Positions 18,701-62,550 of a stretch of DNA of 64,000 bases are shown here, piece by piece. Below the pieces are notes generated by a model that was not told the origin of the DNA, made no database searches, and saw only the letters and a list, made by a program, of their open reading frames with translations. This DNA comes from a virus. Where the stretch lies: the IMG/VR virus record IMGVR_UViG_3300028840_003497, positions 32,001 to 96,000 of that record; one strand, 5' to 3'. The translations under genes and the position numbers were made by a program. Positions within the stretch are counted from its first letter, which is position 1; each line of letters opens with the position of its first letter.

Positions 18701-19041
18701 TTACCAACTCCGATCCCGCCTGTCAGCACCACCTCTCGGTACGGGAAGTCAAAAAGATCGATCAAATCCTTCCTCAACTCCGGATACAGCGTCGAGCACG
18801 ACTCGCCCAGATAATAAGGATCTTCCAGGAACTGTTCCATGGATACCGGTCGCGTATGGTACCGGTGTTCGATCATTGTCTCGGTGACCAATATCTGCTC
18901 TTCTGGGTCGTCGTCGAGCATCCCAAACAGCAAGTCTTGTTCTTGATGAGTCAATGTAGAGATGATATCACCAGCCCGATTTTCGATTTCATCTGGGGTA
19001 AGCACAGACTTCTTGCGCCCGTGTTTGTTGGTGATAATCAC
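15751..19041 (-). CDS. terL: Terminase large subunit with intein (spliced ~683 aa)
   Basis: Walker A GGIGVGK|T split by the intein; Walker B VGLDE; RNase H-like HIDTS...D; DHP..GSKDVSDA; directly upstream of the portal. Confidence 0.9.
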   Translation of the reverse strand: MIITNKHGRKKSVLTPDEIENRAGDIISTLTHQEQDLLFGMLDDDPEEQILVTETMIEHRYHTRPVSMEQFLEDPYYLGESCSTLYPELRKDLIDLFDFPYREVVLTGGIGVGKCLRGDTEIYDPVRGSRVNVKDATLATGGSACASFDGRVTGERGCVVVQSGLKKCGDLTLASGKRLGLSPDHPVLTPDGYVAVGDLRPGDLVATAREMPAPSSPPVVSDDEVMWVAYMLTDGGTTTNSMAFTNENFEIHCEFESVTARLAFGGSGRRGCSFVENAGSAWTVRPLSTLWMREKYGLHKKATEKRVPAGFYGLDDRQLALFFNRVWACDGWVCRREGGDWEVGIALASEKFIFDIQQLMLRFGIHSRVRPRMMTYSHDGESRTSEAWSLSILGSDNVLRFVESIGEVLGKEDACRDAVRELEFVKPNSNVDITPMNRTVMKRLRNEIGPFPRAAWWPRPAMKSQMGHGVFVRFAEKYDLPDWCSWWGNVFWDRVERYDQSEVLEPVYDIEVPGTQNFAAHGIIVHNTFVLSIALCRVLYELSCLVNPQKTFGLSSGTDMVIPLISKNLILAREVMKTAVDDKVRESIYFMEKFAPKISKESTVFPNNIKVIIGSYGSERILGSNVFAVGLDETNFPPVRRSQQITTTIGQRKTAAHFDPVEKVYRNLLRRIKSRFQKAGGDFPGMVILASSAATLESFTERKIKESVNDPNVFVRDHTPWTAKPETDFCGEKFWVVCSSSSMKARILEEDEYDDVTDDYLRDNDAWLIDIPIEYLNDFETDIENALRDIGGISTQAISAYIQRVEAVDSCADDRVRHAFSMGEWTAGGPGKFKWGEMCKEFERRIPGGFIETGHIPRINPNKLRWCHIDTSLSGDCTGFSVGHIDRWVEVVRRDGDGVRFTDYEPFYHIDVLLRINPPPGEQIYMPDLRRLVYELQAHGYSFMGFSTDKYQYVEMHQQVKRRGIHCELISMDEKTDPYDELKSAIYEDRIRYHRYEPFIDEMKALEYDRLRGKIDHPQAGSKDVSDAVAGVVYGLSQGTARLPIGLGTDSHKKGRHEHAWVSPMIPVSQVGLEDAKAMAEEAVDDSDFLPILFGD
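17461..18699 (-). mobile_element. Intein in terminase P-loop (413 aa), LAGLIDADG type
   Basis: GVGK|CLRGDT...SPDHP...VAYMLTDG...RVWACDGW...VYDIEV...IIVHN|TF. Confidence 0.92.
17768..17783. repeat. Dispersed palindrome copy 4 (ACGAACTCAAGTTCAC), inside the terminase intein
   Basis: 12-bp core intact. Confidence 0.6.
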
Positions 19042-19042
19042 C

Positions 19043-20113
19043 CTATTTCTTCTTTCTGGTGTTGTTGCTCGTTAGGCGACTCTTCACATTTCCTCGAACA
19101 CTCGGCTTCCTTGGTCCAGGTGGAAGATTTGGCTTCGGAGCCCTGCGAATCGGCTCCATCTCCACCTCTTTCTCCTTTGGTGGAGGTGCTGGAGCTTCAG
19201 CCTCTTCCAGATCGTCATCTTCTTCTTTTCCGTCATCGTCATCGTCGTCCGTATCCAAAGCCTCCACGCGCTCGTCCATCCCCTCATCAGGCTTGCTAAA
19301 GTCCTCGCGTACATCACTCCAGTCCGGATCCTGTGGGGCTTCCTCCTCATGGTCTGCCCCGTTGTCACCGTCAAACTCGTCGGGCACGTCGTCGGCGTCT
19401 GTGGCCTCGTACTCAACGTCCACGATTTGTGACTCATCATCTTCAAGATTCATGTGATCCCCTAACTGCATTGGAGTTCCGTCTTGATTGCGAAGATTCC
19501 CGGCCCGTTTGATAGCCCCAAGAGCAGCCAGTACGCGCCCGCGAGACACGGGATCCTTGAACGCATCCGACGCCCCAGCCCCGTATTTGTTTTTGATGTA
19601 TTCGACACGCTCCGCCGAAACCGTGATCGTGCCCAAGTCCCGCGATCCCACCAATCCCAGGTCCATCTTGATGCTGTGGATCCTGGTAATGATCGACTCC
19701 ATCCGTTTGTCAATTTTGTCGACCTGCGGGTTGATATTTCCGGTCATCCGCTCCTCGGCATGGAGCACGTCGAATCGATACTGCTGGGCGTTATACTGAT
19801 CCTCCAGCCGCTCCAACTCCTTCATCTTATTGGCGAACTTCTTCTCTGCGGTGGCGAACACACGAGGGAGCGTGGAATGGATCATTCCACCCTCTCGCAT
19901 AGACTGCCTGAATCTCTTTAACATTTCGATCAGAGATGAACGTTTGACGTCGCGGTACTCGTTCATCCTGCTCTGGATAAAATTCGCTACCGCAGATGGA
20001 GGATACCCTGCATACAGCATCTCTTCGACCTGAACATAGCATTTTAGACTACGTATTCTCTTGAATTTGTCGATCGATCTGCTCGCTGTCTCAGCCTTTA
20101 CGCAGCTTCCCAT
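19043..20113 (-). CDS. Probable terminase small subunit with long acidic tail
   Basis: Immediately upstream of terL; helical N-terminus, D/E-rich then basic C-terminus; start uncertain. Confidence 0.5.
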   Translation of the reverse strand: MGSCVKAETASRSIDKFKRIRSLKCYVQVEEMLYAGYPPSAVANFIQSRMNEYRDVKRSSLIEMLKRFRQSMREGGMIHSTLPRVFATAEKKFANKMKELERLEDQYNAQQYRFDVLHAEERMTGNINPQVDKIDKRMESIITRIHSIKMDLGLVGSRDLGTITVSAERVEYIKNKYGAGASDAFKDPVSRGRVLAALGAIKRAGNLRNQDGTPMQLGDHMNLEDDESQIVDVEYEATDADDVPDEFDGDNGADHEEEAPQDPDWSDVREDFSKPDEGMDERVEALDTDDDDDDGKEEDDDLEEAEAPAPPPKEKEVEMEPIRRAPKPNLPPGPRKPSVRGNVKSRLTSNNTRKKK

Positions 20114-23006
20114 CAAACACACCTAGCAACTTCCTGCGATTGCCTTTCCCAGGCAACGCCTTCAACCGTGTACCGTTTATCCTATCCGCTTTCGGAGTTT
20201 TTTTCCACCTCCCATTTTTTTCCACCTTTAATTTGTCCACCAGGATGTTGATCCGGTTTGCAGCACGCTCCTCCGCTTCCTTCTGATCCTCTAGACTCTC
20301 AGGTTCATCACCCATAAGCCCAACGAACTGCCCTGTCTTTACCCCAAGCACATCCAACATCAACTCGTCGTACCCAACGCTGGCCACGCAGTAGTAGCTC
20401 GGAACATCCTGAAGAGCATCGTCCACTCCGATCCGAGAAATCCGTGTCTCACATTGAGAATTTCCAGTGACTGACACCTTGCCGTTCCTCCTCATCACCA
20501 GCGTTCCAAGTTCATTATTCAGACACCACACTCGCTTGCCGGGACTAACAGACTCATCCCGCCTAAATGAATTCTCCCGCATCGGACTGTCCTGAAGATA
20601 TGCATCCTGCCTATCGCTAATGTAAATATCATAGACAATATTGCCAGCAGACGTCCTATCCTTTCTTGTTGAAATGTTTGCACAAAAACCTCTCCGAACA
20701 CAAAGAGACTGCAGTCTCTCAAACATCACGATATTCGTGTTCGTTATTCTCCTGACAGACGAATCCCATTTCTTCTTTGCTCCGTCTCCAAGCCAAAGAC
20801 CATGAATAAAACACTCCAACTGTTCTCTGGTGCAACCTTCAAGAAGCGGACTCATATTCTTGTCGAGATAACGACGCAGGTCGCACCAACCCTTCAAAGG
20901 CTTATCGCGATCCAACCTGCTACGCCTCGACCCAGTCGGGATTCCATACCAAAGCATCCCTCGGATACGATTAACCCACCACTGAACCCCTGCCCCGTTG
21001 AGAATTTCAACGATATCCTTATTCCATGGTTGATGCTCAGCCTGGTAAATCGTGACCTGCCTACCGTTGAAGTTCCCATCGCTCACAAAAAGACCTATCA
21101 GTCTCAACTCATCATCTGACAGGTCAACACCAGGGGCATCCTGTATACCGCACACTGGAACATACCGCCTCTTCACACCTGATAATTTTTCAGCCGTCCC
21201 AACACCCCACTCAGATCTCACCGTTCCTTCCGTCGTCCTTCTGTTGCTTCTGTACACCATTCTGTGGTCACCAGTAACAAGCAGGTCGAGAGTTACAGAA
21301 TTTATCCGGTACATTTCCTCGTCGTCACCAAGTGAGCGATCCACCTTACCCAAAGCAGGAATCCATCTTATTCTCCCACTATCAACCTCAAACCCAGCCA
21401 CCAGATCACCAACGGCGACATCATCAACGCCTCTGAACCCGTCTTTTGTCAAAACCTCTGTTTTCTCATCAAAGCAATGAATAGCAGGTGACCAGTCCAG
21501 TTCCCCAAACACGCACATTGTTGCTCTATGCTGAAGGCCATCCAGCCCAGCCGCAGATCTCAAGCTCAGCAGCCCGAGGTCTGTTTTCCCATCCATGAAC
21601 CGACGTAGATTCACATCCTTCTGCGCCGTCGTCTGCCTGCCAGTAAAAATGGCAGGTTTGAATTCCTTCAGTCTCTCCTGAAAAATATCGTGAACATCAT
21701 GATGCCAAGCATACACCAAAGGACGCTCTCCACCCTCAATTAGGCTCGCCACAAACTCAGCAACGTACTTGGCCTTCGCCACACCAGTCGCCTTGCGAGA
21801 CTCGCGCTCAATCATACGAGCCATCTGCCCTTTCACATGAAACCGCGCTGTGTCGTATCCTTTTGCCTGCTGCTTAGCCGCACCAATCAGCTTGTCATAC
21901 ATGGCCTCGTCATGATGCAAATCCTCGATCTTCCTCGCTATCTTGGGCAGATCAATCGCCACCTCATCATCAGAAGCTCGGCGACGCAAAAGTAGTCCCT
22001 CGCGAGACAAGTGACCGTTCAATGCCTTCGGGTCAGATACTATCTTCTCGCCGTACCCCGTACACCACTCTCTCGTGAATGCCTCGTGGGATCCCAGAGA
22101 GTGAAAATCGATCGCGTTCATGACAGACCATATCTCTTGCCCATACCCGTACACAGGTGTACCAGATAGCCCCCACACATTCTCTGCTGCCTGGGATGCA
22201 AGCGATGCAGCCGAATACTTCGCTGTCCCAGTGTGCCTTAATTCCTGGACCTCATCAAAGATCACCGTTTTAAACCCACGCGCCAGGATTGTCTTTCTCC
22301 ACCAAGAGATTAACCCGTAATGAATGATCGCAAACGGGGCGTCCGGGATCTTGTACGGCGTCTGCGTCTTGAGGATCGGGGCCAGCTTCTCGCCGCGCTT
22401 CGTCGCCAACTCAAACGGACCCATGTCGCGCTGCCCCTTCAGCCCAGGGAGATCGAACAGCGTGCCCACCATCCGCTGCCACTGCTTCTGGACGTGGGTT
22501 TGGCAGACGATCAGGACAGGATACTTGTTTGCCGTCGCTGCCGAGGCCAACCCGCTCCACGTCTTACCAAGCCCCATCCCATCCCCGAGAACACAGCGAC
22601 GATTGGACGTCAAAAAAGTAACAGCCGACTCCTGAAATGGATACAAATCTCCAAGAAAGTCCGCTGGAGGAGTTGTTCGACGACGATCCGCCCCTGACAC
22701 CCTTTTGTTAATCTGGTCTATCGCGCTCTGCCGAGCATCGTCCAGAACGGATCGACACTGGTCAATATTCACAGGGAAACGCATCAGGAGCCAGTTAAGA
22801 TCGGCAATCTCCCGGCGCGTAGAATGAAATTCCAAATACCCGCCGCCGCCCCTCGTTACCCGCGCGCCTGGGAATATCCTCTTCGCATACTCCAGCAGAA
22901 GAGCCTCTCCGCTCAGCCGGAACATGTTCAGTTTATCAATAAACACCAGCTTGCCGTAGATGTGCCCATCCATGCTCGGCTCTTTGAGGTAATCAGGGAC
23001 CATCAT
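20091..23006 (-). CDS. SNF2/HARP-like SF2 helicase with intein (spliced ~632 aa)
   Basis: LYPFQ, GDGMGLGKT, DEVQ, LSGTP, GLDGLQ, ELDWSP..H|SQCETRI.RIG. Confidence 0.9.
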   Translation of the reverse strand: MMVPDYLKEPSMDGHIYGKLVFIDKLNMFRLSGEALLLEYAKRIFPGARVTRGGGGYLEFHSTRREIADLNWLLMRFPVNIDQCRSVLDDARQSAIDQINKRVSGADRRRTTPPADFLGDLYPFQESAVTFLTSNRRCVLGDGMGLGKTWSGLASAATANKYPVLIVCQTHVQKQWQRMVGTLFDLPGLKGQRDMGPFELATKRGEKLAPILKTQTPYKIPDAPFAIIHYGLISWWRKTILARGFKTVIFDEVQELRHTGTAKYSAASLASQAAENVWGLSGTPVYGYGQEIWSVMNAIDFHSLGSHEAFTREWCTGYGEKIVSDPKALNGHLSREGLLLRRRASDDEVAIDLPKIARKIEDLHHDEAMYDKLIGAAKQQAKGYDTARFHVKGQMARMIERESRKATGVAKAKYVAEFVASLIEGGERPLVYAWHHDVHDIFQERLKEFKPAIFTGRQTTAQKDVNLRRFMDGKTDLGLLSLRSAAGLDGLQHRATMCVFGELDWSPAIHCFDEKTEVLTKDGFRGVDDVAVGDLVAGFEVDSGRIRWIPALGKVDRSLGDDEEMYRINSVTLDLLVTGDHRMVYRSNRRTTEGTVRSEWGVGTAEKLSGVKRRYVPVCGIQDAPGVDLSDDELRLIGLFVSDGNFNGRQVTIYQAEHQPWNKDIVEILNGAGVQWWVNRIRGMLWYGIPTGSRRSRLDRDKPLKGWCDLRRYLDKNMSPLLEGCTREQLECFIHGLWLGDGAKKKWDSSVRRITNTNIVMFERLQSLCVRRGFCANISTRKDRTSAGNIVYDIYISDRQDAYLQDSPMRENSFRRDESVSPGKRVWCLNNELGTLVMRRNGKVSVTGNSQCETRISRIGVDDALQDVPSYYCVASVGYDELMLDVLGVKTGQFVGLMGDEPESLEDQKEAEERAANRINILVDKLKVEKNGRWKKTPKADRINGTRLKALPGKGNRRKLLGVFDGKLRKG
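20460..21476 (-). mobile_element. Intein in SNF2 helicase (339 aa), LAGLIDADG type
   Basis: PAIH|CFDEKTEV...TGDHRM...IGLFVSDG...GLWLGDG...VWCL...SVTGN|SQ. Confidence 0.9.
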
Positions 23007-39532: not shown

Positions 39533-41902
39533 CTATTTCTCGGGTTTCCTCGTCTTCGGCTTGCCGGTGTCCTTGTCCTGATCTAATGCAAGATCCACCC
39601 ACTGAGCACTGTCCCCCTCGCGGATCGGGCTCACGCTTGTCAGATCAAAATACCTCTGGCAAATAACGTCACAGTATCTGGGATCCATCTCAGATCCAAA
39701 ACCGCGCCTCCCTGTGCGCTCTGCCGCAATGATCGTCGTGCCACTACCCATAAATGAATCCAGCACAATATCGTCCCGCAAGGAGCTGTTTTTGATCGCC
39801 CGCTCGACCAACTCGATGGGCTTCATGGTATTATGGGACATGCCAATCGCTGTCTGAAACGTATGACATCCTTCAACAACCAAGTTGCACACAACACCAT
39901 TATATGGAGATTTCTCGACGCTCATGATACGCCGCGTGAAACACTCCACACCATCGTATTCGAAGAAATGATACGCTGGACACTTGCTCCGCTGAGGCGA
40001 AACAAAAACAACATAGCAAGGCAGCGTCTCTTTAAAAATCCTATCACCAATTCCAGCCCCAGGAGGAGCATTGTGAATATTTGTCGTCGTCCTGAAACCG
40101 AGAGACTCTGCCAACATAGCCACCTGAGCCGCAAGGAAAGGAGACACTGTCTTGCACACACGGTAGTGCCGTATATTGCTCCCGTCTCCAGCCATATACC
40201 CATCCAACATCGCAGATCGAGTCTCCTCCGACCACTGGTCAAAGCGAGGGAACATCTTATTTGCTGCCCCACGCCCGCACATTTTCTCAAGACGATCCCC
40301 CCAATCACTGTCGAAGAAAACAACATTCATCCCATTGCCGTGATTGTCATACACGGAGGCCTTCGCCTTAAATGCCAACTCCAATAACTTCACCAGATGA
40401 CCCTCTTTGACATGCAACGAAAAACGAGGAAACTGCTTCTTCCCGTTCCCAGCCTTTAGGAATGATCCTTCTGCAGCAAATAATCCTATGGCCCAAGCTT
40501 CATCAACAGAAGGGCTACGCCCAACACCGCACTCTAGTTTCGGCGTCAAAACATAGTCTCCAGCCAGAAGATCCGAAGCCTCAACAAATCTCGGATCATC
40601 ATACTGCCCACTCCCTACACGCCTACGAATCAGGAATGGGTGATTATGTGTTGCCGAAACCGACAAGGAAGACCCAGAAACCGAGATATGAAAAATATCC
40701 TCTTTATACTCGTGCACCGTCACATTCTTTACAGAATGAAACTTGCCATCGTGACCAAACACAGAATCACCAATGCCAACGTCAGATATCGGCTGATATC
40801 CCTTGTCTGTTACAATCATGCTATCCGGAGAGAGACACGGATGTAAATCGTTCTTTCTCGGCTTGTCGTAATTCCAAACGTCCGCCTGATCCCGATCCCC
40901 ACACCAGTGTCGATCCGTAGCTCCCTCTCTCCATCCGTACAAGATCGGCTCGTACTGCCGCTGATAGTCCGAGCGACCTATCGTAAATGTATTCTTGGCC
41001 CAGATGATGAACGTGGACCAGTGTCCACCGGCCTCTCGGAACGTTCCCTGCAAAGTATCCAGCTCCGACGAAGACATGCAAATATAGATCGCGCCTTCAC
41101 AGACCGGCAACATCGCCTGCATAGTCTTCAGCAAGAACGGACGGAATTCCTCACCGAGATCGTCATTCTCGATCTCCCGATGATTCCCGCGCAGTTTATC
41201 CTTCATTGTCTTGCCATAGGCCACGTTATACGGAGGATCCGTGAAAATCATCTTGGCAGCCTCTCCATCCATAACCTTGTCAATCACCGCGCGGTCCGTC
41301 GAGTCTCCACAAATCAACCTGTGAGGCCCCATCTTCCAAACGTCTCCCAGGCTCGTGATAGCAGGGACTGTGTCCGGGTCCGGAGGATCTGGCGGCTCTG
41401 CGCCCCCCTCACCCTGGCCGTCCTTGTACTCGGAGATTAACCATTCGACCTCCTCGCGCTCGAACCCGATCCCAGCAATGGCCTCGTCACCCTCTTTCAA
41501 CATGGCTTGCAAGTGAACCGCCAAAGCATCGTCGTCCCACTCCGACACAATCTCACCTAAGCGGTTGTCAGAGATATTGAACCCGGCAGCCGTCACGTTG
41601 TCATCATCGGCCCAGATCACCGGAATATGCATCAGACCAATGTCCTGACAAGCATACAAACGCTGATGCCCCGCCTCAATAATCCCGGTCCTTTTGTTAA
41701 CCAAAATAGGCCAACGAACTCCAAACCTCTGAATCCCGGCAACCAGCGTCTCCAACGACACAGTCTTCCGGGGATTCGACGGATCAGGCTTCACTTCGCC
41801 AATCGGCTTAAGCAACGGAATCAAATCCGGAAGCACTTCAATGTCACGCTTTGCACCCTTCAAATAAAAACGCTCTCCGCGCTTATCATACGGTTCACCC
41901 AT
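39533..41902 (-). CDS. ParB-like N-terminal domain fused to N6/N4 DNA methyltransferase, with intein (spliced ~453 aa)
   Basis: P...NPR, FG...PI, AGHQR, DNRL.E; GD.W..G.HRLICGDS, TDPPY, HP|TMKP, LDSFMGSGTT, E.DP.YCDVI..R. Confidence 0.92.
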   Translation of the reverse strand: MGEPYDKRGERFYLKGAKRDIEVLPDLIPLLKPIGEVKPDPSNPRKTVSLETLVAGIQRFGVRWPILVNKRTGIIEAGHQRLYACQDIGLMHIPVIWADDDNVTAAGFNISDNRLGEIVSEWDDDALAVHLQAMLKEGDEAIAGIGFEREEVEWLISEYKDGQGEGGAEPPDPPDPDTVPAITSLGDVWKMGPHRLICGDSTDRAVIDKVMDGEAAKMIFTDPPYNVAYGKTMKDKLRGNHREIENDDLGEEFRPFLLKTMQAMLPVCEGAIYICMSSSELDTLQGTFREAGGHWSTFIIWAKNTFTIGRSDYQRQYEPILYGWREGATDRHWCGDRDQADVWNYDKPRKNDLHPCLSPDSMIVTDKGYQPISDVGIGDSVFGHDGKFHSVKNVTVHEYKEDIFHISVSGSSLSVSATHNHPFLIRRRVGSGQYDDPRFVEASDLLAGDYVLTPKLECGVGRSPSVDEAWAIGLFAAEGSFLKAGNGKKQFPRFSLHVKEGHLVKLLELAFKAKASVYDNHGNGMNVVFFDSDWGDRLEKMCGRGAANKMFPRFDQWSEETRSAMLDGYMAGDGSNIRHYRVCKTVSPFLAAQVAMLAESLGFRTTTNIHNAPPGAGIGDRIFKETLPCYVVFVSPQRSKCPAYHFFEYDGVECFTRRIMSVEKSPYNGVVCNLVVEGCHTFQTAIGMSHNTMKPIELVERAIKNSSLRDDIVLDSFMGSGTTIIAAERTGRRGFGSEMDPRYCDVICQRYFDLTSVSPIREGDSAQWVDLALDQDKDTGKPKTRKPEK
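39830..40837 (-). mobile_element. Intein in DNA methyltransferase (336 aa), LAGLIDADG type
   Basis: DLHP|CLSPDS...ATHNHPF...IGLFAAEG...DGYMAGDG...VCNLVV...GMSHN|TMKP. Confidence 0.92.
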
Positions 41903-53488: not shown

Positions 53489-54850
53489 TCACCCCGCCTT
53501 CATGTTGAGGATCGGCTTCACCCGCTCAATAATCTTCGCCGTCGGGCCAATGGCCGCCTCTATCACCTCAGAGGGCTTGTACGCTCCCGGAGATTCGTCC
53601 AGAGGAAGCACCGAGGAGTAGATGCCCTCCATCTGCTTCTTGGCGTCAGAAAGCGCCAGGGTTCGCTTAGCCTCGGACCTGGAGAACAACCGTCCGGCCC
53701 CATGGGGAGCTGATCGATTCCACTCATGGTTTCCGAGCCCCTCGCAGATCAACGTGCCGTCCCGCATATTGAAAGGCAGGATCACCTGTTCACCCTCGTG
53801 CGCGCGTATGGCCCCTTTCCGAATTACCAAATCCTTGAAGTCAATATAATTGTGGACCGTCTCGATCCGGGCCTGTCTATTGTCACTCTTAACGCCAAGA
53901 ATATCGAGGCATTCGCGCATGATGCAGTCACGGTTACGCTCTGCATACGCCTGCGCGAAAACCATATCCCAAAGGTACCCGTAAAAATCATCGCCCTCTA
54001 AGAAATCAAGAGTGGATCCCTTCACATTGTGCAAGCCCAGACTCTCGCGAAGATCCTTGATCGCCTTCGGGATCGCTGACCGTGGCTTCGTCGTTTCTCG
54101 GATCTTGGCAATCTTAGCCTCGTAGTCCGGTGTCATTTTTGTCTTGCGGTTCTCGGTCGCTTTCTTTTGCCAATACCGACAGATCTTCTCGCCCAGCTGC
54201 CGCGACCCGCAGTGAACAATCAGCCAGTAATCATCCCCGCCATCGACACGTCCCAGCTCAATGAAGTGATTACCTCCGCCGAGGGTTCCCTGGCTGGCCT
54301 GCGCCCGAGTAAAATCCATCCCTACTCGCTTACACATCTGCTCGAACCAAAAAGCGTTCATCTCGGGAGGGTTCGGCACATCAACAGACTCGTCCCTCGC
54401 CACCAACCCTCGCCGAAGACTATGAACCGCCCCATCGACCAAACTCCAAAACACCTCCCGTGGCCCACGAACAAGGAAACCATGAGTCCGCGAATCCTCA
54501 TGAACATTAAACCCCATCGGAACACGCTCCCGAATCTCATTGTCCAGATGCGCCATTTCAAATTGACCACTGTGGCGAAATCGTGTGCCCAACATTCCGC
54601 ACCCGATATCAACGCCAACAACAGAAGCAACAACTAGGTTCTGCAATGGCATTGTAAATCCAATGACAGAACCTTTACCAGCATGGGTATCAGGCATTAT
54701 TGCAATATGATCACCCGTATCACGAAGATCAAAAGCAGGATGATTTGTCATGGCAGTAATCTGCGAAACGCACCCCGGATCAACCTGATCTGCAAAAACC
54801 TTCGCAGATGAATATTTTCCATCTATCTCAAACATCATCTTCCTCTCCAT
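53489..54850 (-). CDS. rtcB: RtcB RNA ligase (3'-P/2',3'-cyclic-P to 5'-OH)
   Basis: MPDTH.G.G..IG, VGVDIGCGM, GTLGGGNHFIE, H.GSR..G, HNY, RKGA, HGAGR, DESP.AYK. Confidence 0.95.
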   Translation of the reverse strand: MERKMMFEIDGKYSSAKVFADQVDPGCVSQITAMTNHPAFDLRDTGDHIAIMPDTHAGKGSVIGFTMPLQNLVVASVVGVDIGCGMLGTRFRHSGQFEMAHLDNEIRERVPMGFNVHEDSRTHGFLVRGPREVFWSLVDGAVHSLRRGLVARDESVDVPNPPEMNAFWFEQMCKRVGMDFTRAQASQGTLGGGNHFIELGRVDGGDDYWLIVHCGSRQLGEKICRYWQKKATENRKTKMTPDYEAKIAKIRETTKPRSAIPKAIKDLRESLGLHNVKGSTLDFLEGDDFYGYLWDMVFAQAYAERNRDCIMRECLDILGVKSDNRQARIETVHNYIDFKDLVIRKGAIRAHEGEQVILPFNMRDGTLICEGLGNHEWNRSAPHGAGRLFSRSEAKRTLALSDAKKQMEGIYSSVLPLDESPGAYKPSEVIEAAIGPTAKIIERVKPILNMKAG

Positions 54851-56107: not shown

Positions 56108-56304
56108 CCATCCTTTTCAATATCCACGAGCGATACCGTGACCGAAGAAGGAAATTCGCTACTGGGATTTAGCGCCTTTAAAACCACCATCCTGCGAGAC
56201 GGAAATCTCTCGATTATATACTTATCTGTCGTTCCGATATTCTTCACGACAACCTTGTCATCGACCGAAAAATCACCAACACGCTTCCTTCTGCCTTTCG
56301 TCAT
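56104..56304 (-). CDS. Small hypothetical protein (SH3-like)
   Basis: GGAGG RBS, overlapping the recA stop. Confidence 0.55.
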   Translation of the reverse strand: MTKGRRKRVGDFSVDDKVVVKNIGTTDKYIIERFPSRRMVVLKALNPSSEFPSSVTVSLVDIEKDG

Positions 56305-58499
56305 TACTCCTCCGCGTCTATGCCCTCCAGCATATACTTCATAAGAACCTTCTTCATTTTATCGAACACCTCTGGATTCTCAATTCTCGCGAGCGCCGAA
56401 CCCTTTTTCTGGAACTCCTCGTCACCTACAAACCATGTTTTTTTACTACCATCCTTCTTCTCACGAAAGAGGCCGTACTTCATGGCCTGATCAAGCACGT
56501 ATTTTAATTCCTCTACCATCCCCTGTCGAGCCCCGACAACACGCATAACGTAACTACCGGTAGCCTGCGAAGCCGCAGTCTTGTTCTTGATAATCTTAAA
56601 GTTCATCTGAACTTCCTTGCCAACCTCCAGTTGAAAGTTTTTCTTAAGATCTGAGTCAAACGTCTCCTTCTCCCAATTCGACGGCCACATCGAAACGATC
56701 ACTGAGGATCCAAACTTCTGCCCCATCCCAGCTGGCATGATGCTCCCTGGGCCAAACTTCGCCATCGACATACGCTCCTGGTTGATCCATATTTGTGTAA
56801 CAAGCTTTCCAAAATCACGTTTCACATCAATAACTGACGCCGTAACCTTTCTCACGAATTTATTAATCAGCTTGGCCTGCGCCGCTCTCTGCTCGTCCTC
56901 CGTGCTTGCCTCCACCTCGATGCTCGGTGTCATCGCCGCTACCGAATCCAAGATAAAGAGATCAATCGCTCCAGTTCTCATCATTTCGTCGTAGAGGTCG
57001 ATTCCCTCCTCTGCCGTCGAAGGGTCAACGACAAGCAGAAGCCGCGTATCCACTCCAACGCGCTTAGCCCATGCAAGATCTAGGGTACCCTCGTGATCGA
57101 AGAACGCAACTCGAAACTCCTCGTAACTGTTTTCCTCGTACCGCTTGATGCGCTCCTTGAACGCAGTGGTCTTTTTATTCTTGGTCTTTCCGGTTTTCTC
57201 GTCGGTGACCTCGACCTCGATCTGCTTATGAGTCCCTTTCTCCCGGTTGGAGAAATCCTCCGGATACGGTACCGGCTTGAAGATTCCATTTTTATAACAG
57301 TCGCATGTTCCATGCGCCTCGTATTCAATCTCTCCTGTGTCCTCGTCAAAGCCGGTCTCCACAACCGTAATGTCATCGACGAACCGAAGGCAATTCGCAC
57401 ACAGCTTCTGAGCTATGGCACCAACGCGAAGCGCCTGCGTAGTCTTCCCAGAATTATGAACAACCAGACCATTAGCCACGTAATTATTATAGGGATATGC
57501 ACACTTGAGATCATAGGTTTCAAACTCACCCACTCTCTCGATTTTAGTAATTTCAGACTCGGCAACAACAAAACTCAAATTAGCCAGTCGATCCACTATG
57601 TGCAACGCCCCATGCTCGGACGGATCAATCAACCTAAGATTGTCAATACCATTATTATTGAAATCCTCATCCTCATGATGAACATGAATATGATCAGGAA
57701 GAACAACCAATCCATCGATCTCTGTTTTGGATTTTGTATTTAAGAAATCACGATATTTCTCAAAAGACATGCCATTCAAAAACGCCTCATATACCATCCT
57801 GGACTTCTGGATACGACGGTATGGATAATCCTTGCCCATCTTGGAACAATGAACAATCTTCACGGGAGCAATCGGGTGATACTTGACACATACACCATTC
57901 CTCGTTGTCGCTTTTTTTCTACCAACTTTTCTTGTATTATTATGCACAAAAACTTTCGAACCAACCTTTAATTCACCCAATGGACTAAACCCATCTGGCG
58001 TCATATATTTGTGATCCATTGTGCTTATCAAAAATTCCCCTGTTGACACCTCAACTCGATAGCACATTTTAACACCTGTCCTGACCACATCCAACACCTT
58101 GTTTCTCACAATACAACCATCGTGGTTCACGGACTTCACATAAAAATCAACATCCCCCCTCAGTGCAACCTTGCCGCGCATGTCCGATGCATCCACAAGT
58201 TCACCACTGAACCTCTCGTATAACCTCCGAATCGTGCCCCCTTTTTTGTTTACTACCTCCCCATCCATGGAAACAACATCATATCTCAAAAAACTATCTC
58301 CAGAGATGCACGACTCAGCACCACGAAAAATAGTCAACCTGCCAACAGGGACACCACCACCAAGAGCTACGTCAAAATTCAAGCTACCGGTCAGAAGACG
58401 ATCCATGTCATGAGGCTTCATATTAGCAGCCAACCCAATGGTTCGACCGAGCTTGTTGTTGACGGATTTTTTGAACGCTTTCAGTATCTTACCACGCAT
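56304..58499 (-). CDS. recA: RecA/UvsX recombinase with P-loop intein and Cys-containing insertion (spliced ~445 aa)
   Basis: TGSL.FD.ALGGG.P.GR, GAES|SGKTT, FFD.EG.LD..WA...GVD, LDSVAAM.P..E, A.QA.L, INQ.R. Confidence 0.92.
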   Translation of the reverse strand: MRGKILKAFKKSVNNKLGRTIGLAANMKPHDMDRLLTGSLNFDVALGGGVPVGRLTIFRGAESCISGDSFLRYDVVSMDGEVVNKKGGTIRRLYERFSGELVDASDMRGKVALRGDVDFYVKSVNHDGCIVRNKVLDVVRTGVKMCYRVEVSTGEFLISTMDHKYMTPDGFSPLGELKVGSKVFVHNNTRKVGRKKATTRNGVCVKYHPIAPVKIVHCSKMGKDYPYRRIQKSRMVYEAFLNGMSFEKYRDFLNTKSKTEIDGLVVLPDHIHVHHEDEDFNNNGIDNLRLIDPSEHGALHIVDRLANLSFVVAESEITKIERVGEFETYDLKCAYPYNNYVANGLVVHNSGKTTQALRVGAIAQKLCANCLRFVDDITVVETGFDEDTGEIEYEAHGTCDCYKNGIFKPVPYPEDFSNREKGTHKQIEVEVTDEKTGKTKNKKTTAFKERIKRYEENSYEEFRVAFFDHEGTLDLAWAKRVGVDTRLLLVVDPSTAEEGIDLYDEMMRTGAIDLFILDSVAAMTPSIEVEASTEDEQRAAQAKLINKFVRKVTASVIDVKRDFGKLVTQIWINQERMSMAKFGPGSIMPAGMGQKFGSSVIVSMWPSNWEKETFDSDLKKNFQLEVGKEVQMNFKIIKNKTAASQATGSYVMRVVGARQGMVEELKYVLDQAMKYGLFREKKDGSKKTWFVGDEEFQKKGSALARIENPEVFDKMKKVLMKYMLEGIDAEE
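57453..58310 (-). mobile_element. Intein in RecA Walker A (286 aa) with HNH endonuclease
   Basis: GAES|CISGDS...TMDHKY...HVHHEDEDFNNNGIDNL...EH...H...TYDL...VVHN|SGKT. Confidence 0.92.
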
Positions 58500-58590: not shown

Positions 58591-59574
58591 TCAGACCTTT
58601 ACACAAACCGACAAGTATGGCGCTGTCTTTGCCGCTTCGGACAAGACCATCTGGCCTGCCATAGCAGTCGAGCCTGGCGACCCGACCGTCAAAAACTTGT
58701 AGCCCTGCATCTGATCGTCGACGGTTCCGAGCAAGAACTTATCCTCGCGCAACTTTCCGACCAGCCGTTTGGTCCTGTCCTCGGCCACGCGCATCGACGC
58801 CTGCAACGCCGCACGAATACCGTCAAGGCTCTTTTCTTCGATCTCCAAAGGCCCCCTACCCGGCTGCGACTCTCCGGCGTACCGAATCGCAAACGATCCG
58901 TAGCACACTCGAACCAGCGGGTTCCACAGGGCCTTCCAGAATTCGACCGTAGGAGCCATCTCGACACCAACAAGCTTCCCGTTGACCAGAATTACCGCAC
59001 CGATCTGATTAGGCACCAGTTCAAACTCAGCAACGAACTCGTCAAGCTGCTTTGAATAATTATTCAGAAACAGGACAAGGTTCGAGGATCCGTGTGAGAG
59101 ACCATACCCATGGATAAACTCACCTATGGCACCCCACAGCTTGTTGTACTGCTTCTGCTTCCGCATGGCGAGAGCACTCGCACGCAACTGCGCCGGAAGA
59201 ATGAGCATATCGTGATCACCGTGAGAGATCAGACCTCCCTGGCTCTGCTGGATACACATCGCTGTGTCGATTCGCTTGGACGAGTTCCCATCCACAAATC
59301 CACCACTCCCCAGCGCGTGATCCTGCGCGGCCTGCTTAACAACCCAACCAGCCCCTGTCGGGATGATCGTCGGATTCTCACCAGGATGACGCAAATCTAC
59401 GGTACCATAATCGGATGTTCCGACACTTATTCCGCTGGGAGGATCGAAACTATCGTCCTGTACTCCACCCTCGTCAACCAGCGGAATCACCTCCATGTTT
59501 CCTACGCTCTGAGAACGCCCATGTCCGACTCCGAACAGGATGTCTTCCATCGATACGCTTTGACGTGTCGTCAT
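58591..59574 (-). CDS. ARPP-like (DUF6569-type) protein
   Basis: G..Q.VGNM.VIPL, Y..V.L, K.AAQD, CIQ.SQ, LW..I, EFE.VP.Q.GAV.L.NG..VG.E..P...FW; ATGA overlap with the upstream vWA gene. Confidence 0.55.
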   Translation of the reverse strand: MTTRQSVSMEDILFGVGHGRSQSVGNMEVIPLVDEGGVQDDSFDPPSGISVGTSDYGTVDLRHPGENPTIIPTGAGWVVKQAAQDHALGSGGFVDGNSSKRIDTAMCIQQSQGGLISHGDHDMLILPAQLRASALAMRKQKQYNKLWGAIGEFIHGYGLSHGSSNLVLFLNNYSKQLDEFVAEFELVPNQIGAVILVNGKLVGVEMAPTVEFWKALWNPLVRVCYGSFAIRYAGESQPGRGPLEIEEKSLDGIRAALQASMRVAEDRTKRLVGKLREDKFLLGTVDDQMQGYKFLTVGSPGSTAMAGQMVLSEAAKTAPYLSVCVKV

Positions 59575-61175
59575 GACTCACCTCCAATCAGGGCTAGACT
59601 CTCGATGGTCGAGCCCTTCAAAGCATTCCTGACCAGGGTGTTAATGCCTGTCTCTGGATCCGTCTCCAACAGCCCGCGCAACATAGTCGTTGCGAGCGCC
59701 GCCGGGGTCCTCACCGGCATCGTAGTTGCACCCTCGATCTTATCACATAATTGCCGCACTGCGCCTCCCTCGGCAGCGAACACCGGGTTCATATGAAACA
59801 CTGGTGTCTTGATCCCGACACCACGAGCCGCCACCAGAACATCCTGGAAGCGCCCTGCAGGCGCGTTCTCGTACCCGTCCGACAGGACGTAAACCACCTC
59901 GGGCTCTCGCCCCAGAACGGCCAGGAGACCCTCAGCAAGCGAAGTGTCTCCTTGCGGCCTAACGATCCGATGATCCTCTCCAAGAACCCCTCCGCAGTAC
60001 ACAACCTCGCACTGAGACGCCGTCTTCTCCAGCATATCCCGCAGCGCCAGAGTGGCAGCCAACGGACGCAGATGCTGAGTCCTGTCCCCAGCCATAGATG
60101 CCGAACCGTCAACCACAATACCTACTCGATCATATTTGACCGGCAGAGCAGCCGCAGCAGCCTCCGCCTTCGTATCCAACGCATCGAACACCTTCTTGTC
60201 CGCTCCGTTTTCGAAAGCATATATGTATAAATCCACCGGATCGTACCGGGTGGGATCCATCTTAACTTCGACACCAGCAGCCTTGGCCCGCTTCTGAACC
60301 GTCCTACGCTCACCAGTTGTCATCGTGCCAGACGCAGCCTTCACCTTCAGAATATCCTCCGGCTTCACGCCCGGGTGGTACATGCTCCGAATACCCTCCA
60401 ACACCTCGGTCGGCAACTTCTCACCAGCCTTTATATCTATCTTCGCGTCCACGAATGCCTGGAACAACCGGATTGAAAGATCGACCCGCTTCCCGCTCAG
60501 AAAGGCCAAACACTCAACTACATACGGTTCCTTGTTCAATCCACGAAACTTGAACACGTGATCCTTGAAAATCGCTTTTTCCTTCGCCGTCCAGCGACGC
60601 CGATCCTTCTGAGCAATCGAACCGATGATACTGAACCGACGCTGCCCCCACGCATGCGCGAGTGCCCGTGCCATTTTGCCCCGGTACTTGAGCGTCCAAA
60701 GATCGAGCCGCTTCGCACCAATCAGCGAGGACAGAATAAGCTTCCGCGTCCTGGCATTGTTCGCCTTCGTGACGCCAAATTCATCTCCCTGTCCACGAAA
60801 CGCATCGAACAAACGAAACATCCTCGGTGCCGGAAGGTGATCGACCAAATGGACTAGTACTTCCCTCTCCAACTTCGGATTCAGAAAAACATCCGCATCT
60901 GGAGTACGCGGATTCGAAAGCAGCCTCCCAATTCCAATCTGACGGGCGTGGTCGGCCACCCCTGGCAGCAACAACATCGCCAAGTAAATGTCCCGGCTCA
61001 TCACGAACAACTCGCCGTGGACCGCCATCTCGGCAGCCTTCTGTTCTTCTTTCGTGTTGTAATGGGTCGCCCGGCCAAACGAAGTAGTCGCCGTGTCCAG
61101 AAAATTACACACTTTCTGGCTCGCCTCGACCGGCTGAATTTCATTCCCGCTTTTCCACAATGTGACGCTATTCAT
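59571..61175 (-). CDS. Ro60/TROVE-like helical domain plus C-terminal vWA protein
   Basis: Basic all-helical N-terminal ~345 aa; vWA MIDAS VVDGSASM, GDTSL, VLSDGYEN; GGAGG RBS. The vWA call is firm; TROVE is inferred from architecture and the neighbouring RNAs. Confidence 0.6.
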   Translation of the reverse strand: MNSVTLWKSGNEIQPVEASQKVCNFLDTATTSFGRATHYNTKEEQKAAEMAVHGELFVMSRDIYLAMLLLPGVADHARQIGIGRLLSNPRTPDADVFLNPKLEREVLVHLVDHLPAPRMFRLFDAFRGQGDEFGVTKANNARTRKLILSSLIGAKRLDLWTLKYRGKMARALAHAWGQRRFSIIGSIAQKDRRRWTAKEKAIFKDHVFKFRGLNKEPYVVECLAFLSGKRVDLSIRLFQAFVDAKIDIKAGEKLPTEVLEGIRSMYHPGVKPEDILKVKAASGTMTTGERRTVQKRAKAAGVEVKMDPTRYDPVDLYIYAFENGADKKVFDALDTKAEAAAAALPVKYDRVGIVVDGSASMAGDRTQHLRPLAATLALRDMLEKTASQCEVVYCGGVLGEDHRIVRPQGDTSLAEGLLAVLGREPEVVYVLSDGYENAPAGRFQDVLVAARGVGIKTPVFHMNPVFAAEGGAVRQLCDKIEGATTMPVRTPAALATTMLRGLLETDPETGINTLVRNALKGSTIESLALIGGES

Positions 61176-61214
61176 AACGCACCTCCAGCTCTGAAACTGT
61201 CATCAGATGTTGTG

Positions 61215-61300
61215 GGGATTGATAAATCCGAGGGAGCGTGGAAGTCGATCTATGTTTTAATGTAACTGAAACGACTTCTCAGTCCTCGAACGTTTAATCA
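61215..61300 (-). ncRNA. Structured RNA 2 (Y-RNA-like hairpin, no tRNA module)
   Basis: UUCGAGG/CCUCGGA stem, internal loop ACUGA/CACGCUC, GAAGUCG/CGACUUC stem, apical region UUUCAG-UUACAUUAAAACAUAGA; shares motifs with RNA 1. Confidence 0.55.
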
Positions 61301-61301
61301 G

Positions 61302-61436
61302 AAAAAAAGCGCCGAGAGAGTGGGTGAGGCATTGTGGTTGACAAAACAAGATTTGAACTTGCTACTGTCGGATTTAATGTCCGATGCTCTACCAAATGAG
61401 CTATTCGCCTGAAATGTCTCTCTAGTCCTCAGCGCC
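61302..61436 (-). ncRNA. Structured RNA 1: tRNA mimic (anticodon UUA, 61335-61410) inside a Y-RNA-like closing stem, ending in U7
   Basis: GCGCUGAG/CUCGGCGC terminal stem; cloverleaf GGCGAA-UA-GCUC AUUUGGUA GAGC-A-UCGGA CAUUAAA UCCGA-CAGUA-GCAAG UUCAAAU CUUGU-UUUGUC-AA-CCA. Confidence 0.75.
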
Positions 61437-61441
61437 TGGGG

Positions 61442-61470
61442 AATCTAACTCCGCCCACAGCATTTGTCAA
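61442..61470 (-). promoter_or_regulatory. sigma70 promoter driving the ncRNA/TROVE-like operon
   Basis: TTGACA-17 nt-TAGATT with A-rich UP element at 61474-61488; predicted +1 near 61436 coincides with the 5' end of the RNA 1 stem. Confidence 0.75.
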
Positions 61471-61521
61471 CATGTTTTTTTGTTTTTTCTCCTAATCAAC
61501 TGAGCGCACGCTCTCCGCTCA

Positions 61522-62550
61522 TCATCCAGCCTTCCAACTCTTCGACATCTTCAACAGGGCTTTAGCATCAGCCTTCCCCTCCGGGGTGAGCCTGTGCATG
61601 TGTTTGTCCAGAAAGTCTTTCAATATCGAATTCGGTTTCTTCTTTCGGACAAGGCTAAACTTCAGTTTTGCCACCCGATTCTGATTCACCGGCATCTCCA
61701 TCAATTTATCAGTAACCCTCTGTGGAGCTTGGATCGCGCCAGACCGAAAAACAACCTGGCCACTAACCATCGAAGGCTTGAATTTCTTCGCGATCCGCAT
61801 GGGCACTTTGTCCATGTACCCAGCGTCCTTGGCAACCACATCCTTGACCTTCAACTTATCCCAACTCTCCAAAATCTTGGACGCCGTGTACACCACATCG
61901 AAATCCCTCGGAACCTTCCGATCCCGGTCCAACTCGATAAATTCCGGCTTGAAGTTGTACGCATACTGCAGCCCATCCACCACCGACACAAAGTGGCCTC
62001 CGACGTAGACCTCACCCCTGGGTCGATCCAAAACATCTCCGTATTCGGTCGAGTGCAAAACGTCAATTTCAGGATCCAACTGCTTCTCCCTGTAGACTAT
62101 GAAATCATTACGAGGAACCTGAAACTCAATCTCGAATCCATGCAAAGTATGATCCATATCATAGACCCTGTACCCGAAACACTCGCCGAGATACGGATCG
62201 TCGTAGAACATACCGGCCAGCTTTGTGGACCCGTACCGAATAATAACATTGCAATCGTTCCGCAACAGAACCATGGAGGCCATCTTGAGACCCTCACCAT
62301 GCTTCCCGACGGCACTCGCATCTCCGCGCTTCCCGGATTCTCCGATCTTCATAAACCCGTGATCGTCAGGCAAATAGTCGTTTATCATCTTGACGCTGCA
62401 CAGTTTTGGATCCCCATCGACATCATTAACCCTCTGATCGAACGATCCAAAGTCCATAAAGTTCTGGTTAATCTCCCGAAGTGCCTCAGAAAAACCCCAG
62501 TCGGGGAGGTAGTTCCTGCTCATCCCGTACTTTATAACGTGATCATCCAA
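61522..62550 (-). CDS. GHKL (HSP90/MutL-like) ATPase
   Basis: Y..DWG..EALREI.QN..D, IG.S.K......GKHGEGLK.A..VL.R; TTG start after AAGGAG. Confidence 0.8.
   Translation of the reverse strand: MDDHVIKYGMSRNYLPDWGFSEALREINQNFMDFGSFDQRVNDVDGDPKLCSVKMINDYLPDDHGFMKIGESGKRGDASAVGKHGEGLKMASMVLLRNDCNVIIRYGSTKLAGMFYDDPYLGECFGYRVYDMDHTLHGFEIEFQVPRNDFIVYREKQLDPEIDVLHSTEYGDVLDRPRGEVYVGGHFVSVVDGLQYAYNFKPEFIELDRDRKVPRDFDVVYTASKILESWDKLKVKDVVAKDAGYMDKVPMRIAKKFKPSMVSGQVVFRSGAIQAPQRVTDKLMEMPVNQNRVAKLKFSLVRKKKPNSILKDFLDKHMHRLTPEGKADAKALLKMSKSWKAG

What the first reader, a model, noticed from the sequence alone, without database searches (positions are those of the whole stretch)
61302..61436. Complete non-permuted tRNA mimic with 'ochre' UUA anticodon locked inside a closing stem
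Seen: 61335-61410 folds as a 76-nt cloverleaf with D arm, TTCAAAT T-loop and encoded ACCA. It has an A1:A72 mismatch, two G:U acceptor pairs, A33 instead of U33 and anticodon UUA. The 5' leader and 3' trailer pair (GAGACAUU/AAUGCCUC and GCGCUGAG/CUCGGCGC) and are followed by U7. Known: YrlA tRNA mimics are permuted, with the Ro-binding stem replacing the anticodon arm. Here the stem extends from the acceptor end and the anticodon arm is kept. Inference: this is either a non-translating decoy or tether, or a pre-tRNA released by processing.
Basis: partly seen in the sequence, partly recalled or inferred. Interest (0 to 1): 0.8.

Follow-up and report, generated by a model that had tools for sequence, protein, structure and literature searches.

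The report
Phage Y-like RNA displaying whole tRNA
This is a small phage RNA in which a complete tRNA look-alike sits on a conserved closing stem next to a very diverged Ro60-type protein gene, so it is most likely one RNA of a new branch of the Ro60/Y-RNA particles, not a working stop-codon suppressor tRNA.

Summary
Positions 61410-61335 form a cloverleaf (Rfam tRNA 52 bits; ARAGORN tRNA-Stop, anticodon UUA) with A33, an A1/A72 mismatch and an encoded CCA. Leader and trailer pair in two helices (P1, P2). A TTGACA-17-TAGATT promoter precedes them and U7 follows.

This is not a lone odd tRNA. The same handle (P1, loop RACUR, P2, YCAG) closes two more RNAs in this 176-kb phage. It also closes 2-3 RNAs upstream of every homologous gene pair I could read (8 loci), with compensatory changes in P1 and P2.

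The adjacent 534-aa protein has no Pfam hit but folds as Ro60 (TROVE ring plus vWA; Z 19.8 to 1YVR). It is always followed by an ARPP gene. A complex model docks ARPP on the vWA MIDAS face (0.64, best control 0.00).

Across orthologues the anticodon is not kept (UUA, UCA, ACG, CAU, ACA, UAG), and CCA occurs only here. A sister RNA carries a permuted tRNA and scores below threshold against Rfam YrlA.

Best reading: a Y-RNA-like tether or decoy. An ochre suppressor is unlikely, though processing is not excluded.

This scan has met the same module before on other DNA. I found no paper describing it.

The parts
61442..61470 (-). Sigma-70-like promoter TTGACA-17-TAGATT. The predicted +1 is about 61436-61435, the first bases of helix P1.
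   Evidence: A TTGACA -35 element lies at the same place in L018, L019, L020, L031 and L032.
61302..61436 (-). RNA A, the finding: about 135 nt, handle plus a complete non-permuted tRNA-like cargo plus a U7 tail.
61428..61435 (-). P1 5' strand, GCGCUGAG. It pairs with 61309-61316.
   Evidence: Covariation in the lower part of P1: GCGC/GCGC (window), GGC/GCC (L018), GUAC/GUAC (L019), GAACC/GGUUC (L020). The apical YGAG/CUCR changes to GGG/CCC, AAG/CUU and AGG/CCU in other copies.
61421..61427 (-). 5' internal loop GACUAGA, holding the conserved RACUR motif.
   Evidence: ACT is invariant in alignments A2 and A3. The handle regex matches only RNAs A, B and C on the minus strand of the 176-kb genome.
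61413..61420 (-). P2 5' strand, GAGACAUU. It pairs with 61326-61333.
   Evidence: P2 covaries across the family (AGGUAC/GUGCUU, UGUCGG/CUGAUA, GGCCAG/CUGGCC, CUCCGU/GCGGAG and others).
61409..61412 (-). Junction UCAG (conserved YCAG). Its A and G are 'tRNA' positions 1 and 2, which explains the A1/A72 mismatch.
   Evidence: CAG is invariant in A2, A3 and A4. Pair 1:72 is unpaired in 5 of 6 orthologues.
61335..61410 (-). tRNA-like cargo: D, anticodon and T arms and a 5-nt variable loop. U8, A14, G18G19 and the UUCAAAU T-loop are kept.
61373..61379 (-). Anticodon loop CAUUAAA (A33; UUA at 61377-61375).
   Evidence: Not conserved in orthologues.
61326..61333 (-). P2 3' strand, AAUGCCUC.
61309..61316 (-). 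P1 3' strand, CUCGGCGC, followed by U7 (61302-61308). P1 plus the U-run looks like an intrinsic terminator.
   Evidence: A U-rich tail follows P1 in all copies.
61222..61292 (-). RNA B: the same handle with an 18-nt cargo that also contains CAUUAAA.
   Evidence: Model R1 scores 77 bits. Alignment A3.
59571..61175 (-). 534-aa Ro60-like protein: helical ring plus a vWA domain with MIDAS residues D356, S358 and S360.
   Evidence: AF2 model with pLDDT 87. The Foldseek top 12 are all Ro60/TROVE. VIA-align Z 19.8, rmsd 4.5, 409 residues aligned to 1YVR. Invariant columns.
58591..59574 (-). ARPP-1 family protein, 327 aa. Its start overlaps the stop of the Ro60-like gene by 4 nt.
   Evidence: Pfam PF20208, 1.4e-26. 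It follows the Ro60-like gene in every locus with annotation. Complex model.

Best explanation
RNA A is one of three phage-encoded, Y-RNA-like noncoding RNAs. They are built on one conserved handle: terminal helix P1, an internal loop with RACUR, helix P2, and a YCAG junction. Shown here: the handle structure and its covariation, the fold of the neighbouring protein, and the co-occurrence of RNA genes, Ro60-like gene and ARPP gene. Inferred: the handle is the binding site for the adjacent, highly diverged Ro60-like ring protein, which in turn holds the ARPP protein on the MIDAS face of its vWA domain. Also inferred: the handle displays an L-shaped tRNA look-alike as a tether or decoy for tRNA-binding factors (modification, processing or repair enzymes, or host tRNA-targeting nucleases). 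On this reading the RNA works as the about 135-nt species, or as an RNase-P-nicked form still held together by the handle, as reported for M. smegmatis YrlA. It does not work as a free, charged ochre-suppressor tRNA. The UUA anticodon and A33 are incidental states of a fast-evolving anticodon arm.
For: (1) The handle is conserved and covaries. On alignment A4, 90% of cells are paired against 49% or less when partners are slid, 15 pairs change on both sides, and 0 of 500 shuffles reach this. On alignment A3, RNAalifold finds P1 and P2, and 9 of 12 pairs show compensatory changes. Manual table. (2) The same handle closes cargoes that cannot give a tRNA: RNA B has an 18-nt cargo; RNA C has a permuted tRNA with its acceptor closed by a loop; permuted cargoes also occur in L022 and L023. 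(3) RNA C matches Rfam YrlA over the full model at 32.7 bits, E 9e-6 to 9e-5, below the gathering score of 69. (4) The neighbouring protein has the Ro60 fold. All 8 homologous loci with DNA carry 2-3 handle RNAs just upstream. (5) Orthologous RNA A copies have different anticodons and no conserved CCA, while the D arm is 19/19 identical in L031 and L032. (6) Every long ORF, including capsid, portal, helicase and RecA, is open under code 11, and there is no sign of TAA reassignment. (7) The Ro60-like/ARPP complex model scores 0.64 against a best control of 0.00; this mark was reached by 58 of 80 solved complexes and 2 of 110 mismatched pairs (counts hold only roughly, because my own alignments were used). 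The three runs agree in at least 90% of contacts, the partner's pLDDT is 85-87, and the interface includes MIDAS residues 358-360 and 435-442. I know of no solved Ro60-ARPP complex.
Against: Binding of the handle by the Ro60-like protein rests on gene adjacency and analogy. The protein has no detectable sequence similarity to TROVE. The handle lacks the GNCGAA motif of YrlA. RNA A has a 7-position acceptor, single-stranded junctions on both sides and, in this phage, an encoded ACCA, so RNase P and 3' trimming could free a tRNA. G3.U70 with A73 would fit recognition by AlaRS.
Confidence: 0.62

Rival explanations
1. RNA A is an ordinary monocistronic pre-tRNA. RNase P and 3' processing release a 76-nt tRNA that is charged and reads UAA as an ochre suppressor. 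The leader-trailer stem serves only as terminator and stabiliser.
For: Good tRNA score (52 bits). CCA is encoded. It has its own promoter and U-tract. The closest orthologue, L032, has a canonical U33 loop with UCA, also a stop-reading anticodon. Other A33/UUA tRNAs exist in metagenomic tRNA arrays (L010, L007).
Against: The anticodon differs in every orthologue. A33 replaces the near-universal U33 (established tRNA knowledge). Pair 1:72 is unpaired in 5 of 6 orthologues. CCA is absent elsewhere. The same handle carries non-tRNA and permuted cargoes. There is no TAA-interrupted gene; the one large in-frame TAA junction (15751-15753) is a normal SD-stop-ATG gene boundary.
Confidence: 0.12
2. 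The handle is a self-contained expression, stability or processing cassette, for example an RNase recognition element plus terminator used for small phage RNAs. It is unrelated to the Ro60-like protein; the adjacency reflects only a shared 'RNA island'.
For: P1 plus the U-run looks like a terminator. These modules often lie within tRNA arrays (L022, L024). There is no direct binding evidence.
Against: Handle RNAs lie immediately upstream of the Ro60-like gene in all 8 loci read, across 50-80% protein identity and in a bacterial genome. The conserved single-stranded RACUR and YCAG motifs suggest specific recognition. Ro60 genes classically have their Y RNAs next to them (PMC4201824, PMC12135203).
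Confidence: 0.12
3. RNA A is a decaying pseudo-tRNA with no function. The flank pairing is fortuitous.
For: A33, the 1:72 mismatch and a stop anticodon are typical flags of pseudo-tRNAs. The folding z-score is only -2.0.
Against: Stems are maintained by compensatory changes in orthologues. Promoter, handle and elbow nucleotides are conserved.
Confidence: 0.03

Closest known systems
Bacterial and mycobacteriophage YrlA/YrlB Y RNAs with Ro60 (Rsr) (Chen et al. 2014, PMC4201824; Rfam RF02553)
   Same: Small RNAs are encoded next to a Ro60-fold gene. The 5' and 3' ends pair in a stem with a conserved internal-loop motif. One RNA carries a tRNA-like domain and a second, smaller RNA lies in tandem. 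RtcB is nearby (53489-54850), as in the Salmonella rsr-yrlBA-rtcBA operon. Sister RNA C gives a sub-threshold YrlA match.
   Different: RNA A carries a complete, non-permuted cloverleaf including the anticodon arm. The handle motif is RACUR...YCAG, not GNCGAAN0-1G. There is no Rfam YrlA hit for RNA A. The protein is not recognisable as TROVE by sequence. An obligatory ARPP partner gene is present.
Thermus phage phiLo Ro60 with Yrl1/Yrl2 (PMC12135203; PDB 9KOP, 9L5Y)
   Same: A phage-encoded Ro60 ring with two Y-like RNAs just upstream of the gene. It is a structural neighbour of the 534-aa model (Z 16.0-16.4).
   Different: The phiLo RNAs have a CGAA bulge, and that paper describes no tRNA-like domain in them. 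The phiLo protein is a recognisable Ro60 homologue. No ARPP partner is reported.
Phage-encoded suppressor tRNAs
   Same: A tRNA-shaped gene with a stop-reading anticodon in a tRNA-rich phage (29 tRNAs and a tmRNA).
   Different: There is no recoding in this genome. It has A33, a variable anticodon in orthologues, and is locked in a conserved handle.

Membership tests
Canonical decoding tRNA (suppressor) | Cloverleaf with conserved tertiary nucleotides | tested here: met
   Rfam tRNA 52 bits. U8, A14, G18G19 and the T-loop are present.
Canonical decoding tRNA (suppressor) | U33 and an anticodon conserved among orthologues | tested here: not met
   A33 here and in L018. The anticodons are UUA, UCA, ACG, CAU, ACA and UAG.
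Canonical decoding tRNA (suppressor) | Free, paired acceptor end with CCA; aminoacylation | not testable with these tools
   Pair 1:72 is unpaired in 5 of 6 orthologues. CCA is encoded only in the window. Charging and processing need experiments.
YrlA Y RNA (Rfam RF02553) | Scores at or above the Rfam gathering score (69 bits) | tested here: not met
   No YrlA hit on 61200-61550 at E<=1. Sister RNA C scores 32.7 bits.
YrlA Y RNA (Rfam RF02553) | GNCGAAN0-1G motif in the Ro60-binding stem (PMC4201824) | tested here: not met
   The handle loop is GACUAGA / RACUR. GGCGAA occurs only inside the acceptor stem of this one copy.
YrlA Y RNA (Rfam RF02553) | tRNA-like domain in T arm - acceptor - D arm order, without an anticodon arm | tested here: not met
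   RNA A is non-permuted and keeps the anticodon arm. RNA C is permuted but also keeps an anticodon arm.
YrlA Y RNA (Rfam RF02553) | Encoded adjacent to a Ro60 orthologue and bound by it | tested here: inconclusive
   Adjacency to a Ro60-fold gene is met in the window and in 8 other loci. Binding was not testable.
Ro60 / TROVE protein (the neighbouring gene) | Pfam TROVE (PF05731) sequence match | tested here: not met
   No Pfam family at E<=10. No TROVE match in the whole phage. hhalign against a true Ro60 gives probability 1.4%.
Ro60 / TROVE protein (the neighbouring gene) | HEAT-repeat ring plus C-terminal vWA with MIDAS | tested here: met
   Z 19.8, rmsd 4.5, 409 residues aligned over model residues 20-505 to 1YVR. 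The best non-Ro60 match is vWA only, Z 10.9. DxSxS is invariant.

The most novel reading that the evidence does not exclude
The handle displays full-length tRNA mimics whose anticodon arms diversify rapidly because they act as baits or sensors for host tRNA-targeting (anticodon) nucleases. The Ro60-like/ARPP particle would hold the cleaved mimic together and couple it to repair (RtcB lies nearby) or sequester the nuclease. That would make it a phage counter-defence ribonucleoprotein of a kind not yet described.
Probability: 0.15. Interest if true: 0.85.

Novelty: new variant of a known kind. Interest (0 to 1): 0.6.

Why it matters
Ro60/Y-RNA particles are conserved from bacteria to humans, yet the purpose of the tRNA-like module of bacterial Y RNAs is still unknown. 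This branch offers three things. Second, an obligatory enzyme-like partner (ARPP) predicted to sit on the MIDAS site, whose role in Ro60 is unexplained. Third, natural 'cargo swaps' on one handle: a whole tRNA, a permuted tRNA and a mini-hairpin. Together these make the tether/decoy question directly testable in phage-host systems. The result also warns annotators that some 'tRNA-Stop/Sup' or odd tRNA calls in phage genomes are domains of larger noncoding RNAs.

Tried and rejected
- BLASTN of the locus against 50,697 phage records gave only short tRNA-body matches and no relative.
- The search for related loci with the upstream 404-aa protein found nothing.
- Pattern scans for a D arm plus a CAUUAAA loop gave one intron-bearing tRNA in viral contigs. 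In metagenomes they gave 15 loci, mostly intron-containing tRNAs in arrays, plus two A33/UUA tRNAs (L007, L010). None carries the handle.
- Single-sequence AF2 of the 534-aa protein was useless (pLDDT 38.6).
- Sequence searches of that protein against PDB gave nothing, and hhalign against a true Ro60 gave nothing.
- TAA reassignment or programmed read-through is rejected. Stop use in long ORFs (>=100 aa) is TGA 124, TAG 76, TAA 49. In-frame single-stop ORF junctions in a second scan (both sides >=70 codons) are not enriched for TAA. The 1096-aa/portal junction is an ordinary gene boundary.
- Model R1, built from short-cargo RNAs, finds several long-cargo copies but misses RNAs A and C, so genome-wide counts rest on a regex.
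- RNAalifold on A4 proposed a local CUGGAG/UUCCAG hairpin in the leader instead of P2. I prefer P2 because it covaries family-wide. The invariant CUG...CAG could still form a pseudoknot-like contact.

Full report
**Where the window lies.** The window is bases 32001-96000 of a 176,267-bp IMG/VR virus record with direct terminal repeats. All genes lie on the minus strand. They include major head, protease, portal, helicase, RecA and RtcB genes, several with inteins. ARAGORN finds 29 tRNAs in clusters plus a tmRNA.

**The observation.** The finding is on the minus strand.
- ARAGORN reports tRNA-Stop (tta) at 61335-61410.
- Rfam tRNA scores 52 bits (gathering score 29), with 1:72 as the only non-standard pair.
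- The anticodon loop reads C-A-U-U-A-A-A, so position 33 is A.
- The acceptor has G3.U70 and G5.U68, then A73 and CCA.
- A sigma-70-like promoter (TTGACA-17-TAGATT, 61470-61442) puts +1 at the first bases of the leader.
- GCGCUGAG/CUCGGCGC (P1) and GAGACAUU/AAUGCCUC (P2, one A.C mismatch) bracket the cloverleaf, and U7 follows.
- Folding energy alone is unimpressive: z = -2.0; the comparative structure is -32.9 kcal/mol against an MFE of -38.2.

**No sign of recoding.** Long ORFs are intact under table 11. Stop usage in ORFs of at least 100 aa is TGA 124, TAG 76, TAA 49. In a second scan (both sides at least 70 codons), ORF pairs separated by a single in-frame stop are not enriched for TAA. 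The only large TAA-separated pair (1096-aa ORF and portal) is a normal GGAG-TAA-N3-ATG gene junction.

**The lead from earlier notes.** Notes by first readers of this scan suggested that the downstream 534-aa gene might be Ro60-like and that neighbouring RNAs share a scaffold. I tested this.
- The protein has no Pfam hit even at E<=10, and no TROVE match exists anywhere in the phage.
- With a 60-sequence alignment, AF2 gives pLDDT 87 and pTM 0.81.
- The 12 best Foldseek matches in PDB are all Ro60/TROVE (1YVP, E 8e-8).
- VIA-align gives Z 19.8, rmsd 4.5 A, 409 residues aligned over model residues 20-505 to 1YVR. The best non-Ro60 hits are vWA domains only, at Z 10.9 or less.
- The MIDAS residues D356, S358 and S360 are invariant.
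- The next gene is an ARPP-1 protein. Its start overlaps the stop of the Ro60-like gene by 4 nt, and it follows the Ro60-like gene in every annotated homologous locus.
- A complex model supports binding, but does not show it: score 0.64, best of 3 controls 0.00. The mark was reached by 58 of 80 solved complexes and 2 of 110 mismatched pairs; these counts hold only roughly because my own alignments were used. The runs agree in at least 90% of contacts and the partner's pLDDT is 85-87. The interface covers MIDAS-face residues 358-360, 408-411 and 435-442 and ARPP residues 20-25, 182-188 and 239-264.

**The RNA family.** Eight homologous loci with DNA (L018, L019, L020, L022, L023, L024, L031, L032) each carry 2-3 small RNA genes directly upstream of the Ro60-like gene. 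Those I read back to a promoter (L018, L019, L020, L024, L031, L032) start from a TTGACA promoter. All share one handle:
- P1, with an apical YGAG/CUCR and a freely covarying lower part;
- a 5' internal loop beginning RACUR;
- P2, 6-8 bp, freely covarying;
- an invariant YCAG junction, then the cargo;
- an A/C-rich 3' linker, the P2 3' strand, a 7-10-nt 3' loop, the P1 3' strand, and a U-rich tail.

RNAalifold on six short-cargo copies finds P1 and P2, with compensatory changes in 9 of 12 pairs. On six orthologues of RNA A, the structure P1 + P2 + cloverleaf has 90% of cells paired, against 49% or less when partners are slid. Fifteen pairs change on both sides, and 0 of 500 shuffles reach any of the five measures.

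In this phage the handle motif occurs exactly three times on the minus strand:
- RNA A, the finding.
- RNA B (61292-61222), with an 18-nt cargo.
- RNA C, 709 nt beyond the window end. Its cargo is a circularly permuted tRNA: anticodon arm with GAU, T arm, acceptor closed by a loop, D arm.

RNA C matches Rfam YrlA over the full model at 32.7 bits, below the gathering score of 69. Permuted cargoes also occur in L022 and L023. In the Minicystis genome locus L022 the module sits inside a 39-tRNA array together with a bona fide TROVE Ro60.

**What this means for the 'ochre tRNA'.**
- The invariant A and G of YCAG are 'tRNA' positions 1 and 2. This explains the A1/A72 mismatch; pair 1:72 is unpaired in 5 of 6 orthologues.
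- The 3' linker is A/C-rich but differs in every copy (ACCAC here, ACACCA, ACCCAG, ACGAAAA, AUCAAA). The CCA here is therefore probably fortuitous.
- The anticodon arm is the fastest-evolving part. Against L031 (80% protein identity) the D arm is 19/19 identical but the anticodon loop only 1/7.
- The orthologous loops read UUA (A33), UCA, ACG, CAU (A33), ACA and UAG.
- Stems keep pairing, and the elbow nucleotides (G18G19, T-loop) are conserved.
- So an L-shaped tRNA mimic is under selection, not a particular codon reading.

**Mechanism.** Shown: the conserved handle, the tRNA-shaped cargo, the Ro60 fold next door, and strict co-occurrence with ARPP. Inferred by analogy with Ro60/Y RNA systems (PMC4201824, PMC12135203): the Ro60-like ring binds the handle. 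The tRNA domain then tethers or decoys tRNA-binding factors, and ARPP is the effector held on the MIDAS site. ARPP is predicted in PMC9503650 to act on ribose or ADP-ribose moieties through conserved Cys and Gln residues. RNase P nicking, as seen for M. smegmatis YrlA, is possible here. Full release of a tRNA cannot be excluded without experiments.

**Novelty.** Searches of the held paper library found no description of a Ro60-like/ARPP module or of this handle. Rfam 15 has no family for it. Earlier follow-ups of this scan reached the same module on other genomes. It is therefore a recurrent, apparently undescribed branch of a known kind of system. RNA A is its clearest example of a complete, non-permuted tRNA cargo.

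Noticed in passing
beyond the window end: genome 96709-96851 (-), i.e. window coordinates 64709-64851: RNA C has its own TTGACA promoter and the same handle as RNA A. Its cargo is a permuted tRNA that keeps an anticodon arm (GAU). It scores 32.7 bits against Rfam YrlA (gathering score 69).
   Followed up: yes
genome 96316-96693 (-), just downstream of RNA C: A phage-encoded tmRNA (Rfam RF00023, 96.3 bits; ARAGORN gives a tag peptide), flanked by tRNA-Met and tRNA-Ile. Handle RNAs, tmRNA, tRNAs and RtcB together form an RNA/translation-maintenance island.
   Followed up: partly
window 61222-61292 (-): The 18-nt cargo of RNA B contains the same heptamer, CAUUAAA, as the anticodon loop of RNA A. 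This is not seen in the relatives I read (L018, L019, L031, L032).
   Followed up: partly
window 11878-15747, 15751-19041, 20091-23006, 39533-41902, 56304-58499 (all -): Inteins or homing-endonuclease insertions lie in the portal gene, a 1096-aa ORF of unknown family next to it, the SNF2 helicase, the ParB/DNA-methylase gene and RecA. That is an unusually intein-rich phage.
   Followed up: no
window 53489-54850 (-): An RtcB RNA ligase gene (Pfam 5.8e-57) lies about 4 kb downstream of the Ro60-like/ARPP pair, reminiscent of the Salmonella rsr-yrlBA-rtcBA operon.
   Followed up: partly
L022 (Minicystis sp. MAG contig, 11.6-kb locus): A true TROVE+vWA Ro60, the Ro60-like protein, ARPP and at least two handle RNAs all lie within an array of 39 tRNA genes in a bacterial genome.
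   Followed up: partly
L010 1386-1459 and L007 5688-5760: Other metagenomic tRNAs have the same rare CAUUAAA loop (A33, UUA) but no handle; the L010 one lies next to another tRNA gene. Several other hits (L003, L004, L011, L012) look like tRNAs interrupted after CAUUAAA by intron-like inserts.
   Followed up: partly
window 61424-61409 (-) and the same place in all handle copies: The invariant CUG (in RACUG) and CAG (in YCAG) flank the 5' strand of P2 and could pair with each other. That would form a pseudoknot-like closure, or an alternative conformer to P2. Both are invariant, so covariation cannot decide.
   Followed up: partly
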